Assembly: GCA_965204735.1 (NCBI GenBank)
Contig: OZ242008.1
Coordinates: 2,432,001-2,496,000, forward strand
Source: Longimicrobiales bacterium
GTDB lineage: Bacteria; Gemmatimonadota; Gemmatimonadetes; Longimicrobiales; Gaopeijiaceae
Direction: 5' to 3'
Length of the DNA stretch: 64,000 bases
Shown here piece by piece: positions 18,001-24,000 of the stretch. Position 1 is the first letter of the stretch. Each line of letters opens with the position of its first letter. A program made the position numbers.

Positions 18001-21000
18001 GCGCTTCCGTTCCCTCGCCGGCCTCCACCGCCCGCCGAAGGGCGGCGAGCTCGGCGTCCAGGGCGGAAAGCCCGGCTTCCGCGTTCCGCTCCCGCTCCCG
18101 CGCCCGGCGCAGCTCTTCCCGGAGCAGCTCCAGCCGCCGCCGACTGCCGTCGAACTCCCGGGAGGCCTTGGTCGCCTTGGCCGCCGCCTCGGTCGTGCGC
18201 ACCGAGAAGAGGTCGCCCTGGCTCCGAAGCTCCTTCAAGGCCCCCGCGCCCTCCCGGGCGTCGCGGGCCAGCCGCTCGAGTCGCCGCCCCAGCTCTTCCT
18301 CCTGGATGCGCGCCGCCGTCCGGTTCCCCTCCGCCCGGGCGATCCGCGTGGAGACGGCGCGGACGCGCTCCTCCAGCTCGCGAAGCTCGCGCCGGGCGGC
18401 GTCGAGTCGCCCGCGAACCTGGGCCACCTTGTTGCTGCGATCCTTTAGGTCGGACTGCACAACTTCAAGCGCAGATTGACTTTGCGCCTGTTCTTCCGAG
18501 TATCCGGCCAGCTCGTCCTGGGAACGCACGCGGAGCTTGGCCAGCCGCTCCTGCTCCGTCGCGACCTGCTCCGCCCGGCGTTCGGCGGCGGCGATCCGCT
18601 CCCGGGCCACCGCCACCTCCGTCTCCACGCCCGCCAGCTCGGTCCGCACGGCGTCGAACCGTCCGGCGGCCTCCACTCGCCCCTTCTCCGAGTCGATCTG
18701 CGCCAGTCGAGCCTTCTCCAGGTCGGCCTCGGCCGCTCCCAGGCGGGCCGCAACCCCCGCGCCCTCCTCGCGTCCGCTCTCGAGCAGCCCGTCCAGCTCG
18801 GCCAAGCGCGCGTCGAGAAGCTCCAAGTCGATCCTCACCACGGCCGCCTCGACGCCCAGGCGCCGGGCGCGCAGCTCCTGCCACCGCTGGGCCTTCCCCT
18901 TCTGGCGGGCCAACGAGCGCACCTTGGTGCGGACCTCGGCGATCACGTCCTCGACCCGCTGAAGGTCCACCTCGGAGGTCTCCAGCCGGCGCAGGGCCGC
19001 GCGACGCCGGTCCTTGTACTTCCCGATTCCCGCCGCCTCCTCGAAGAGGGAGCGGCGCTCGTCGGTGCGCTCCGAGAGGATCGCGTCGATCATCTTGATC
19101 TCGATCACCGCGTAGGCGTTGGCGCCGAGCCCCGTGTCCCGGCAGAGGTCGACGATGTCGCGCAGGCGGCAGGCGGTCCGGTTGAGGGTGTAGTCGCTTC
19201 CCCCGTCCCGGTAGACGGTCCGCCCGATCTCCACTTCCTCGAAGGGGGTGGGCAGCACGCCGTCCTCGTTGGAGACGGCCATGGCGACGGAGGCCCGGTT
19301 CACCGGCTTGCGGGACGCGGCGCCCTGGAAGATCACCTCCTCCATCTTCGCTCCCCGGATGGCGGAGGGGCGCTGCTCTCCCAGCACCCAGCGGATGGCG
19401 TCGCCGATGTTGGACTTGCCGCAGCCGTTGGGTCCCACCACGGCGGTGATCCCGTCGTGGAACTCGATGCGGGTGGAGTCGGGGAAGGACTTGAAGCCGT
19501 GGACGCGGAGGGAACGCAGCTTCATGGGGCCGCTTGGCCGCCGGGCGGCCGTGGACCAGGGACGGGAGCCTCCGAGTGGTCGGCGTCGGCGGAAGGCGGG
19601 GGCTCGTCCATGGGCAGCGCCGTGGCGTCGCCCCAGAGGGCCTCCAGCCTGTAGAACTCCCGCACCGGCGCGTGGAAGACGTGGACCACGTAGTCGATGT
19701 AGTCGAGGAGGATCCACCGCCCGTCGTCCTTGCCTTCCACATGGTCGGGACGGACGCCGGCCGCCTTCGCGGAGTCGAGCACGTGGTCGGCGATGGCCTT
19801 TACCTGCACGTCGGAACGACCGCTGGCGATCACGAAGAAGTCGGTGGCCGACGAGAGTTCGCGCAAGTCCAGGACCACGACCTCTTCCGCCTTCCTGTCG
19901 AGGGCGCAGCGAACCGCGGCCCGGACCTCGGCGGGCACGCGTTCGGAGGCGGTCAAACCTGCTCGGCCTCCACGACGACGCGCACTTCCACTTCCACCTC
20001 CGAGCCCAGCCGGAGGGCGACGCGGTACTCGCCCACGGCCTTGATCGGTTCGTCCAGGGCCACGTGCCGCGGATCCACCTCGAAGTCGGTTCCGGACCGC
20101 GTCGCCTCTTCGGCGATCTCCCGCCGGCCGACGGAGCCGAAGAGCCTGCCTTCCTCGCTGGCCCGGGCTTGGACGGCGAACGTCTTCCCCTCCAGCTGGG
20201 AGGCGCGGCGCCGCGCCTCGAGGTAGTCCCGGCGCGCCCGCTCGTCCTGCCGGCGGCGCTCTTCCTCGATCATCTTGACGGCTGCTTCGGTGGCCCGGTA
20301 GGCCAGCCCCTTCGGGATGAGGTAGTTGCGGGCGTACCCGGGCTTCACGTTCACGACCTGGCCGGTCGAGCCCAGGTGGTCCACGTCCTCGCGCAGGATG
20401 AGTCTCATGTCAGGCCCCGTGATCCTTCATGTACGGGATCAGCGCCAGGTATCGGGCCCGCTTGATCGCCGCGCCCAGGCGGCGCTGGAAGCGGGCGGTC
20501 ACCTTGGTGGTGCGCTTCGGGAGGATCCTGCCCTGCTCCGTCAGGAAGCGGGACAAGGTGGTCACGTCCTTGTAGTTGAGGAGGACGATGGGCGGCCCTT
20601 CGTGGCGACGGCGACGGCCTCGGGCGCCGGCGAACTCGGGAGGGCCGGAGCGGGGCGGCGGCGCCTCGGCGGCCTCTTCCGCCCCGTCCGATTCGCCGGC
20701 TTGCTCGCCTTCGGAGCCGCCCGCGTCCCCACGGGCGGCGGCGGGAGTCCCCTGGGCGGCGGCCGCGGCCTGGCGGACGACGGCATCGCCTTCGTCGGCG
20801 CTCTCCGCCTCCTGGCGGGCGCTGCGGGCCTCGTCGGCGTGGTCGCTCGGGGCGTCCTTGGCGGGCGCTCCCGCAGGCGCCTGTCCCTCGGCTGCTTCGG
20901 GGCCCCGGTCCCCGCCTTCGTCCTGCGCGACCGTCGGAGGATCCGCCAGGACGGAAGCCCCCGACGTGGGCTGGCCCTCGTTCGCGACGATCAGGTGCCT

Positions 21001-24000
21001 CACCGTCTCCTCGTCCAGGCGCAGCAGCCGCTCCAGCTCGGGAAGAGAGGTCGGGTCGGCTTCCACGTGGACGACGGCGTAGTAGGCGGTCGTCCTCTTG
21101 CCGATGGGGTAGGCCAGCTGGCGGAGGCCCCAGTGGTCCACGGCGGAGACCTCGCCGTCCAGCGCGGCGTGGAAGGTCTCCAGCTTGGCGTCCACGGCGC
21201 TCCGCTCCAGGCCGGCGTCCAGAATGTAGACGATCTCGTATGCTCGCATTTTCGCGGGAAGCTCCCTCGGACCGCGGTGGGTTGGCGGGCTCCGCCGTTC
21301 CCGGACGGAGCGGGCAAAGCTGCTGGCGAAAGATAGCGCGGACGAAGCCGGGAGCGGAAGGGGCGGTGTCGTACCAATTTAGAAATGTCCGGTCTTACCA
21401 AGATAGAAATGTCCTCTTTCGGGCGATGTTCGGCGGGAGTCGAACTCGTGCCCGGGAGAGGAGCGAATGGAGTTGAGCTTGAAGGAGCGGGACCGGATCT
21501 CGGTGTTGAGGCAGGTGAGCGAAGGCGTGCTGGCGGCGGCCGACGGCGCGGCGCGCTTCGGGGTGACGGAGCGTCACTTCCGGCGCGTGCGCCGCCGGTT
21601 CGAGGCGGCGGGCGACGAGGTGGTCGTGCACGGGCTCCGGGGTCGGAGGTCGAACCGGTCGCTGCCGTCGGAGACGCGGGAGCAGGTGCTGGTCATGGCC
21701 AGGGACCCCGACTACGCCGACTTCGGCGCCACGTTTCTGGCGGAGCACGTCGAGCGGGAGCTGGGCGTGCGCGTCAGCGCGGAGACGCTGCGGGCATGGC
21801 GGAAGGGCGCGGGCTTGTGGCAGCGCAAGCGCAAGCGGGCGAAGCACCGGCGCCGACGGCCGCGTCGCGCCGCGCGGGGCGAGCTGCTCCAGTGGGACAG
21901 CTCGGTTCACGCCTGGCTTGAAGACCGGGGGCCGCCCGACCTCGTGCTGATCGCGCTGCACGACGACGCGACGAGCGGGTTCATGCACGGTCGCTTCGTC
22001 GAGCGCGACACGGGCGCCGCGAATCGGCGAGCGATCGTCGAGTGCCTCGAACGCCACGGCCGTCCGAGGGCGGTGTACGTGGACCACGCGGGCCACTTCG
22101 GGCAGCGCCTCGGCCCGGAGGGCAAGCGGACCCGGACGATCATCGGCACGGCGCTGGAGAAGCTGGGCGTCGAGGTGGTCCTGGCGAACTCGCCGCAGGC
22201 GAAGGGCCGGGTCGAGCGGACGTTCGGCACGGCGCAGGACCGGCTGGTCAAAGAGATGCGCTTGGCGCGAGTCACCACGCTCGAGGCGGCGAACCGCTAC
22301 TTGGAGGAGCGGTGGGTTCCGTTCTGGAACGAACGCTTCACGGTGGCGCCGGCCGATCCCCTCGACGCCCATCGCCCGCTGCCTCAGGACATCGATCTGG
22401 AAGCCCTCTTCGCCGAGACGGACACGCGGGTCGTGGCCCGCGACTTCACCGTGCGCTTCGAGAACCGCTTCTGGCAGGTCACGGCCCGCGACGCCGAGGC
22501 GGCCGGCGTCGCGCCGGGCTCCCCCGTCGTCGTCGAACGGCGCCTCTCGGGCGAGCTGCGCTTCCGGCATCGCGGCTGCTACCTGACGCCCAAGGCCTTG
22601 GGGGCGGTCCGGTCGGCGACGCCCAAGCCGGCGCCGGCGCCCGCGACGGCCAAGCCCAGGCCCAAGCCGCCGAAGCCGGGAAGGGATCACCCGTGGCGCA
22701 AGCACTTCAGCGCCAGCGTGGCCCAGGCCGTGGCCAAGCGGGAACACCGCGCCGCCCACTCCAACGGGACCGGTCCCGAGCGGTGCAGGACCTCGTCCTG
22801 AGCCTGCAGGCGGGGACGGCAGCTCGCACTCCCCTTCCCGCAAAGGTCGGACGCGACCGCAGTGTCGGCATCCGTGCCTCCGAGGCTTGCCGGCGCTGCG
22901 CAGGTCGCTCGGCGCACCACGACCGTCCGAGCTGGCAGGCTCAGTGCGAACTGCGAGCCATCGGGGCAGCAGTGTCCGGACCCGTCCGCGTTGGCGTCCA
23001 CCCGGCCAGAGCTTGGCCACGGCGACGACCTCGACTCGCCCGGCCGCCACTGGCCTTGAAGCGCCTGGAACAGGGCGCCCGGCGCCGTCCAGCCCAGGCT
23101 TGCTGGATCCGCGTGTCCTGCGCCCGACACCTGGCCCCCGGCCTCAGGAAGAACCCACCGTCCACACCATCAGGGGGGACATTTCTACTTTGGCCAACTA
23201 CCGGACATTTCTACTTTGGCTTGACAGGGAGCGGAAGGGGCGGGCTTGCTTCTGGCGCAGGAGGCCCGCCTTTTGTACGATAGGGCCTTGCGGGCGGTCC
23301 TCCGGGGTCGGCCGCGCGACCGTTGCGCCGAGCCGGGGAGAGGTCGGCGGCGGCCCACGAAACGAAAGGGCGCGTTCCCTTAAATGGACTTCACATCCTA
23401 AATGGACTTCACATTCGCCGGCGCTTCGCGAAGCGACACCTTCGGCTGGTTCGCCGAGGGGTTGCGGAGGGTGATGGAATCGCAGGGCCATCGCTACATC
23501 GACGAAGCGTCCGACGCCAAGCTCGTCGTCAACTTCTTTCCCAGGAACGAGCCTCGGCCGGTGCGCCGCCACGCCCAGTCGGTCTTCGTGTGCGCCGTCA
23601 CCGAGTTTCCCGACCCCTTCACGGACCCGATCCCGCAAGGCTACCCCACGCTGATCCGGGCGCTGGCGAACTTGGCCGTGGGACTGGTGCCGGGCCCCCA
23701 CGGCGACCCGGACGTCCACTTCGTCACTTTGGAGCAGGGGCACTACATCGTCTCGGGCAACGCCAACCGCGCCCACTACTTCGACAAGGTGTACGACCGG
23801 ATTCATCCCCTGGCGTCGTCCACCCTGGTCATCGAGAACTTCTTCGAGCCCGACCTGCCCAGGGAGCTGTGGGAGGGCGACGAGATCACCGAGTCGATCT
23901 ACCGGGCCGGCAAGAAGCTGGACGGCCTGGACCTGCTGCCGGCCCCCTTCCCCATGGACAAGCTCCTGCCGGAGAGGGACTTCCGTCACGTGAAGCGGCT

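What a model noticed while it worked through the whole genome (the two positions that open the first line are those of the whole stretch)
20410..21249. Ribosomal proteins bS6 and bS18 are one fused polypeptide throughout the family Gaopeijiaceae
The only rpsF and rpsR are a single 279-aa frame: S6 (4-88), an acidic linker, and an S18 (224-271) that has lost its CxxC. The fusion marks the family and is absent from its two sister families.
Evidence so far: Domains and sequence. One stop-free frame holds both in 30 of 30 family loci fetched, own included; 0 of 10 sister-family loci are fused and all 10 S18 keep CxxC.
(Added by a program. Inside this text positions count along the whole contig: contig position 2,432,001 is position 1 of the stretch shown here. 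"Call 12" and the like, gene names such as g00115 and contig names such as C1 are that model's own, and its searches are not shown. The text may have been shortened before it was handed on; [...] marks where a part breaks off. The agent that wrote the report below was given it as the finding of a first reader that could run no searches.)

Follow-up and report, generated by a model that had tools for sequence, protein, structure and literature searches.

The report
Fused ribosomal proteins S6 and S18
In one large group of bacteria two core ribosomal proteins that normally pair up as separate chains are encoded as one protein that has lost its zinc site, and the same fusion has arisen separately in at least one unrelated group.

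Summary
Real. Window 21249-20410 (-) is one 279-aa frame holding the genome's only bS6 and only bS18; contigs from two other studies span it intact. Of 101 family genomes, 95 are fused, 1 is broken but fused-type, 2 uninformative, 1 foreign, and 2 (G074, G081) truly unfused. Those two form the sister branch of the fused genomes, keep the S18 zinc site, and have S6 and S18 in frame, one TAG apart. So the fusion marks the family's crown, not the whole family. None of 99 sister-family or 129 further phylum genomes is fused. The linker is S6's old acidic tail plus a new conserved motif where S18's CxxC was. RNA-contact and interface residues and a CCR-bearing leader RNA are kept. It is not unique: an unrelated class labelled Bdellovibrionota has 12 of 13 fused, its unfused member keeping the zinc site; a single origin is rejected. 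Most likely a single-chain S6:S18 heterodimer. No proteomics; cleavage not excluded. Automatic annotation shows it; ten literature searches found no description.

The parts
20410..21249 (-). rpsF-rpsR fusion gene, 279 aa (bS6-linker-bS18), sole copy of both
20986..21240 (-). bS6 domain, residues 4-88; keeps R43/Y47/R84 (counterparts of E. coli S6 interface residues R44, Y48, R85)
   Evidence: Pfam; alignment; fold match Z 15.9, rmsd 1.5, 93 residues to 8cwo_F; residues named in PMC4647458
20947..20985 (-). conserved start of the old S6 tail, residues 89-101 (GE/Q-P-T-x-G-x-S); also present in unfused relatives
   Evidence: 42 of 43 fused loci; unfused f3, G074, G081 have EGEPTAP; block pLDDT 86 for 91-100
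20644..20946 (-). variable acidic, low-complexity loop, residues 102-202; whole inter-domain stretch 54-196 aa across the family (130 here)
   Evidence: pLDDT <50 over 130-214; 3-nt deletion in other strains
20590..20643 (-). clade-specific motif PPEF(S/A)G(G/A)RGRRRRxEGP, residues 203-220, standing where S18's start and CxxC were; no in-frame start codon here
   Evidence: (38-44 of 44 per core position, codons vary synonymously)
20413..20589 (-). bS18 core, residues 221-279, all four zinc ligands lost; K263/R266 (E. coli K60/R63) invariant
21264..21314 (-). rpsF leader RNA: closing helix CCC/GGG over the ribosome-binding site, a covarying hairpin, a short third helix, unpaired CCG at 21270-21268 (S6:S18-binding-motif-like)
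   Evidence: compare PMC3854524
19953..20408 (-). rplI (bL9), starts 1 nt after the fusion's stop
19522..19956 (-). rsfS (ribosome silencing factor), overlaps the rplI stop
21367..23200 (+). ISNCY-family insertion sequence just upstream of the leader (not part of the fusion; right end at or beyond 23200)
   Evidence: NF033594 above cut-off; 12 near-full copies in the genome; other strains' contigs diverge at 21366

Best explanation
A single-chain version of the obligate bS6:bS18 heterodimer. Shown: in unfused relatives ssb/priB is gone from the operon and S18 starts within -4 to +5 nt of the stop of an S6 that ends in an acidic tail; in the family's basal branch the two genes are in frame, one TAG plus one codon apart; in the crown of the family the stop and the S18 start are gone, the S6 tail runs into S18, and CxxC..C..H is replaced by a conserved Pro/Gly/Arg motif. 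Inferred: the stop was lost once in the crown ancestor; the chain is made whole from the rpsF start, S6 and S18 fold onto each other in cis with the acidic loop hanging out disordered, the unit binds the 16S platform through the conserved S18 Lys/Arg pair and represses its own translation by binding the CCR leader. The tether gives exact 1:1 supply and probably makes the zinc knuckle dispensable, which would explain why fusion and loss of the site go together in two unrelated clades.
For: Sole copies. 95 of 101 family genomes with both domains in one frame, 44 of them read base by base. RpoB tree puts G074 between the outgroups and 15 fused genomes (SH-aLRT 98/99); S6 tree puts G074+G081 sister to 30 fused rows (93/94/86). 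Junction spacing in 49 unfused loci. No ATG/GTG/TTG in the 40 codons before the S18 YKD in 24 of 44 fused loci, own included; 1 of 44 has one with an SD-like site at the ancestral distance. Interface and RNA-contact residues kept in 43 of 43. AlphaFold pTM 0.60 with 161 of 279 residues at pLDDT 70 or more, which needs the two domains placed together; a natural fusion with a 10-residue linker models as one unit, pTM 0.85. Leader: 97.9% of cells paired, 7 of 15 pairs with two-sided changes, 0 of 500 shuffles as high. Zinc site intact in 49 of 50 unfused Gemmatimonadota loci, 0 of 43 fused; second clade 0 of 12 fused, 1 of 1 unfused. Other zinc proteins mostly stay C+ in fused genomes (S14 10 of 15, L33 14 of 17 copies, L31 11 of 16), so the S18 loss is not a general zinc-sparing shift.
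Against: No protein-level or RNA data. AlphaFold has seen S6:S18 complexes, so cis packing in the models is not independent evidence. A 54-196 aa flexible linker would also allow pairing in trans or cleavage, and the conserved motif could be a cut site. Zinc-site loss also occurs without fusion (G292; Hyphomonas; Gammaproteobacteria), and many outside fusions come from lineages already lacking the site, so the order of events is not shown. Trees are quick trees without bootstrap; G081 is placed by S6 only.
Confidence: 0.72

Rival explanations
1. Polyprotein: translated whole, then cut in or beside the linker so that the ribosome carries separate S6 and S18.
For: Long exposed disordered loop; a strongly conserved motif just before S18 could be a recognition site. 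Processing of ribosomal protein precursors is known (Prp/L27, ubiquitin fusions; recalled).
Against: No Prp protease in G000 (rings in 3 of 14 controls). Independent fusions have unrelated linkers down to 8-10 residues that leave little to cut. The Arg-rich motif resembles ordinary S18 N-terminal tails.
Confidence: 0.15
2. The fusion works as described but is a neutral accident: adjacent genes lose a stop, the termini happen to be close, and zinc loss is unrelated drift.
For: Genes are adjacent throughout the phylum and in frame in 10 of 49 unfused loci, so the mutation is easy; linker length is unconstrained; zinc-less unfused S18 is common; a one-genome frameshift fusion exists in Hyphomonas (L141).
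Against: No reversal seen among 96 fused-type genomes; a new 18-residue motif became fixed with synonymous codon variation; in two clades the unfused member keeps the site and every fused member lacks it; only 1 of 74 outside two-domain proteins keeps the full site.
Confidence: 0.35
3. Internal re-initiation makes a free S18, so the long frame is incidental.
For: 16 of 44 loci have ATG/GTG ten codons before the YKD tyrosine.
Against: That position is His, Ile or non-start Val in the other 28, own included; the ancestral start lies at -18/-19; SD-like support in 1 of 44 (84).
Confidence: 0.03
4. Assembly or sequencing artefact.
For: Such artefacts exist for this gene pair (L141; about ten chimeric-looking proteins).
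Against: 95 genomes in 76 genera, 120 of 120 best homologues two-domain (25), contigs from other studies, and loss of the distal Cys/His, which no single frameshift can cause.
Confidence: 0.01

Closest known systems
bS6:bS18 heterodimer of the 30S platform (rpsF-ssb/priB-rpsR-rplI operon)
   Same: Both domains, fold, interface residues, S18 Lys/Arg RNA contacts, operon position before rplI.
   Different: One chain; no free S6 C-terminus or S18 N-terminus; no ssb/priB between. None of the best 60 of 170 PDB sequences matched by a fused profile carries both domains.
C-minus (zinc-free) alternative ribosomal proteins, e.g. mycobacterial S18-2
   Same: S18 without cysteines.
   Different: Those are Zur-regulated paralogues beside a C+ copy, often transferred (PMC5912738). 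Here it is the sole, native gene: same locus, tail YVRDHEV-like against YVREHEV in the unfused sister.
S6:S18 complex-binding motif / rpsF leader (PMC3854524, PMC4647458)
   Same: Hairpin, unpaired CCR just before the ribosome-binding site, site held in a closing helix (75, 78).
   Different: The bulge carries a further 4-bp helix, giving a three-way junction; CCR is 1 nt before the paired GGG (2-3 nt before the SD in the paper); the ligand would be one chain. No Rfam match.
Bacteroidia anti-SD pocket formed by bS21, bS18, bS6 (PMC9976891, PMC13000453)
   Same: Lineage-specific remodelling of the same platform proteins in a related phylum.
   Different: G000 has the canonical anti-SD and SD-like words are enriched before starts, 27-29% against 10-13% (37), so it is not SD-blind; proteins there are not fused.
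Automatic database entries for S6/S18 two-domain proteins
   Same: Atlas clusters named 'Ribosomal protein S18/Ribosomal protein S6 domain-containing' and 'Multifunctional fusion protein'; one JGI name lists both (P0414).
   Different: Labels only; most named entries read just 'S6', hiding S18.

Membership tests
bS6 | Pfam PF01250 / TIGR00166 above cut-off and S6 fold | tested here: met
bS6 | S18-interface residues (E. coli R44, Y48, R85) | tested here: met
   R43 nearly invariant, Y47 and R84 invariant in 37 rows; A-loop pattern 43 of 43 (112)
bS18 | Pfam PF01084 / TIGR00165 above cut-off | tested here: met
bS18 | CCR-reading Lys and Arg (E. coli K60, R63) | tested here: met
   K263, R266 invariant; 43 of 43 (112)
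bS18 | Incorporated in the 30S subunit | not testable with these tools
   inferred from being the sole copy (8)
C+ (zinc-binding) bS18 | CxxC plus distal Cys and His | tested here: not met
   0 of 43 fused loci; 49 of 50 unfused phylum loci have it
Zur-regulated alternative (C-) S18 paralogue | Second copy beside a C+ primary, away from the native operon | tested here: not met
   one S18 match in 98 of the 99 family genomes with a match; G073's second is a 49-aa frame not examined; native position
S6:S18-binding rpsF leader | Conserved hairpin with correlated substitutions | tested here: met
   helix 2: 5 of 8 pairs with two-sided changes, 97% paired; 29 of 42 leaders aligned, those up to 62 nt (69, 78)
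S6:S18-binding rpsF leader | Unpaired CCR next to a helix-held ribosome-binding site | tested here: met
   CCR-GG pattern 42 of 43 fused and 48 of 51 unfused loci; unpaired in the consensus fold
S6:S18-binding rpsF leader | Binds the protein and represses translation | not testable with these tools
   needs binding and reporter assays
Bacteroidia-type anti-SD sequestration | Genome-wide lack of SD sequences | tested here: not met
   SD-like words 27-29% at -16..-4 against 10-13% in four control windows, rough gene caller
Prp-processed ribosomal precursor | Prp protease encoded | tested here: not met
   no PF04327 match in G000 (114); other proteases not tested
   G074 and G081 unfused; fusions elsewhere

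The most novel reading that the evidence does not exclude
bS6-bS18 fusion is a recurrent, selected redesign of the 30S platform: in several unrelated lineages a covalent tether takes over the job of the S18 zinc knuckle, and in this clade a new fixed peptide (PPEF-GGRGRRRR) fills the knuckle's place and contacts rRNA or mRNA near the anti-SD region, with a 50-200-residue acidic loop displayed on every ribosome. The unfused sister lineage, one in-frame amber codon away, is a living intermediate, possibly already giving some read-through product.
Probability: 0.33. Interest if true: 0.82.

Novelty: new variant of a known kind. Interest (0 to 1): 0.63.

Why it matters
The bacterial ribosome's parts list is treated as fixed; here two core proteins are one gene across a large clade that, if the family name is right, has a cultured member (Gaopeijia maritima, PMC11651109), with the pre-fusion state preserved in its sister branch and a parallel case in an unrelated class. 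That gives natural material to ask what the S18 zinc site is for, whether the heterodimer step of 30S assembly and of rpsF autoregulation can run on one chain, and how obligate partners become fusions. Practically, these genes are mostly annotated as S6 only, so S18 can look absent in marker sets, and the fusion plus motif is a sharp character for the crown of the family.

Tried and rejected
Rfam: no match in 20 loci at E up to 1 (18) or in the 201-nt leader region at E up to 10. My first hand-written leader structure was mis-registered in two helices; the RNAalifold structure was counted instead. Sigma-70 promoter scan found nothing. Search for long S18 proteins with a Chloroflexota-like query returned only S18 with long tails, 0 of the best 120 two-domain. 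Idea of a family-wide zinc-sparing ribosome: rejected, although G000 itself has C- S14, L31 and L33. Idea of SD blindness: not supported. RimK: the only family hit above cut-off lies beside an argC/lysY-like gene and looks like LysX (identification by recall). No RNA holder listed. G068 dropped as a foreign contig (4 kb, ssb-like frame between the genes, S18 whose long homologues are labelled Chloroflexi); L047 in G212 likewise looks alphaproteobacterial. Position of G365 in its class is unresolved. A complex prediction was not run: the pair is a textbook one. A window query in the wrong frame gave nothing and was redone. Earlier scan findings were not available.
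Full report
Observation. Window 21249-20410 on the minus strand is one 279-residue frame. Pfam places bS6 at 4-88 and bS18 at 224-271; both TIGR equivalogs pass their cut-offs. The genome (one 4.14 Mb contig, 98% complete) has one S6 and one S18 match, both here. 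rplI starts 1 nt after the stop, then rsfS and smc; an ISNCY element lies about 50 nt upstream of the leader. Four of 17 listed runs were laid: X2 has a contig over 20214-21394 with no difference; X3 and X7, from other studies, span the gene with substitutions, mostly in the linker, and one 3-nt deletion; X4 covers it in four overlapping pieces.

Family. S18 and S6 were searched in the same 101 genomes. In 95, from 76 of 81 genera, both matches lie on one strand, in one frame and one open stretch; 44 of these were read from DNA, the other 51 rest on coordinates and frame length. G037 is cut by a contig end but its S18 carries the linker motif; G080 and G095 lack an S18 match; G068 carries a foreign-looking locus; G074 and G081 are unfused. 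In both, S6 ends in an acidic tail, then TAG, one codon, and the ATG of an S18 with CxxC..C..H, all in one frame. A quick RpoB tree of 26 genomes puts G074 between 10 outgroup genomes and 15 fused ones (SH-aLRT 99 and 98). A quick S6 tree of 64 rows puts G074+G081 (93) as sister to 30 fused rows (94; joint branch 86). Both trees lack bootstrap. One origin in the crown, after this branch left, is the simplest reading. A further 29 family genomes have S18 frames of 237 aa or more, consistent with fusion, S6 not checked.

Outside the family. Of 100 genomes of the two sister families 99 have an S18 match; 92 have frames under 150 aa and the 7 longer ones were read and are unfused. Of 129 genomes of other orders and classes, 10 have frames of 145 aa or more; 9 were read as unfused and in G350 no S6 lies in the frame. 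These tallies include genomes flagged unpublished (G101, G122, G171, G224; G101, G284); all have short S18 frames and leaving them out changes no conclusion. In 47 of 49 unfused loci the S18 ATG lies -4 to +5 nt from the S6 stop, and 10 of 49 are in frame; 49 of 50 keep the zinc site.

Anatomy. Fused proteins are 206-345 aa (median 217, n=43). After S6 comes a conserved GE/Q-P-T-x-G-x-S segment that unfused relatives share in part, an acidic stretch of free length, and PPEF(S/A)G(G/A)RGRRRRxEGP, which sits where the S18 start and CxxC were; codons in it vary synonymously, so the constraint is on the protein. The distal C..H is replaced by (T/S/N)AxF. No start codon is conserved before S18. S6 residues matching E. 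coli R44, Y48, R85 and S18 residues matching K60, R63 (named in PMC4647458, passages) are kept. The AlphaFold model has two confident domains, 130-214 disordered, pTM 0.60; its S6 part matches solved S6 chains. A natural fusion with a 10-residue linker (P0305) models at pTM 0.85, suggesting the two ends lie close; neither model is independent of solved heterodimers.

Leader. 42 of 43 fused and 48 of 51 unfused loci have CCR just before the ribosome-binding site. For 29 of 42 leaders (those up to 62 nt) the consensus is a three-way junction with unpaired CCR; 97.9% of cells pair, 7 of 15 pairs change on both sides, 0 of 500 shuffles reach this and slid partners pair at under 49% (rows are related, so this overstates). 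It fits the S6:S18-binding motif of PMC3854524 (passages), which represses rpsF in E. coli (PMC4647458, first fifth of the text).

Recurrence. A profile search of 1.84 billion representatives returned 59 two-domain proteins among the best 150; 6 are family-like and 53 not. With 21 more, 74 outside proteins were scored: 3 have CxxC, 1 the full site. About ten look like chimeras or frameshifts by eye, many are near kin of each other, and 18 of 29 looked up are singletons on one contig; a one-genome frameshift fusion in Hyphomonas (L141) shows such artefacts occur. One outside clade is solid: six GTDB genomes, four titled Bdellovibrionota or Bdellovibrionales, are fused, and in the class of G360, 13 of 15 genomes have an S18 match, 12 fused without the zinc site and one (G365) unfused with it. 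Atlas clusters of 88, 90 and 61 members, commonest phylum Pseudomonadota, carry both domains in 80-100% of members, but my metagenome scan recovered 0 fused among 80 loci. On an 82-row S6 tree holding all 49 fused rows together is rejected (p-AU 2e-7); parsimony needs 19 changes, of which well-supported branches force only 3. So at least two well-documented origins, probably many.

Zinc. Loss is specific to S18: among fused genomes S14 is C+ in 10 of 15, L33 in 14 of 17 copies, L31 in 11 of 16; all unfused genomes tested are C+ (11 of 11, 9 of 9, 11 of 11). Loss also happens without fusion, so fusion nearly implies loss but not the reverse.

Mechanism. Best reading (0.72): loss of one stop codon turned S6's acidic tail into a linker; the chain is made whole, folds as an intramolecular S6:S18 unit, enters the 30S platform and autoregulates through the CCR leader. 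Gene structure, history and residue conservation are shown; whole-chain persistence, cis pairing, leader binding and any benefit are inferred. Cleavage (0.15) is not excluded, though no Prp protease is encoded. Whether the fusion was selected or only tolerated is open (neutral reading 0.35).

Literature. Ten full-text searches listed no paper describing a bS6-bS18 fusion; I saw listings only for most hits. Term look-ups: PMC3353972 and PMC7782861 have no 'fusion' or 'fused'; PMC2837039, PMC7203096 (first 300,000 characters) and PMC11651109 passages do not mention it; PMC9976891, PMC13000453 and PMC5912738 were read as passages for comparison. No supplements were opened, two relevant surveys were not held, and subscription journals are mostly absent, so a passing mention may exist. 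Automatic annotation already shows the architecture. None of the best 60 of 170 PDB sequences matched has both domains.

Verdict. A real, clade-wide fusion of two core ribosomal proteins with a preserved pre-fusion sister and at least one independent parallel. A new variant of a known system; interest 0.63.

Noticed in passing
window 21367-23200: ISNCY-family element with 12 near-full copies in the genome, inserted about 50 nt upstream of the rpsF leader, near where the promoter should be; contigs of three other strains diverge at 21366, so the insertion looks strain-specific.
   Followed up: partly
G000:C1:1081907-1082499 and S14 near position 4089618 (outside the window): The genome's only L33 and L31 and the only S14 found are cysteine-free (C-) forms, L33 and L31 side by side; shared with G055 and G100, partly with G005, G045, G067, but not with most of the family. 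L36 keeps its zinc motif.
   Followed up: partly
L018:532-1464 and about 1 kb after rpsR in 16 fused loci: A DUF2232 membrane-protein gene lies between rpsR and rplI in G074, and a gap of that size in many relatives; it is gone in G000 and its close kin.
   Followed up: partly
L066 (G048), L067, L068, L069, L013, window 20644-20946: The longest linkers (116-196 aa) cluster in the branch that includes G000; unfused S6 of another order (L097) has a similarly expanded acidic tail.
   Followed up: no
P0247, P0256, P0258, P0421: Further fused, zinc-less proteins whose S6 groups with other Gemmatimonadota lineages, i.e. possible extra origins inside the phylum; the first three are singletons.
   Followed up: partly
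L006 (G068:C9) and L047 (G212:C316): rpsF/rpsR loci that look foreign to their bins (Chloroflexota-like and alphaproteobacterial).
   Followed up: partly
P0122-P0241: Many S18 proteins of 171-244 aa with no second Pfam domain, two labelled Chloroflexi: long unexplained tails.
   Followed up: no
window 19522-19956 and 16013-19717: rsfS and smc follow rplI with little or no gap, so the ribosomal operon may run into the condensin gene.
   Followed up: no
L255/L256 (G062:C26): S14 match is in two pieces about 320 nt apart; not examined.
   Followed up: no
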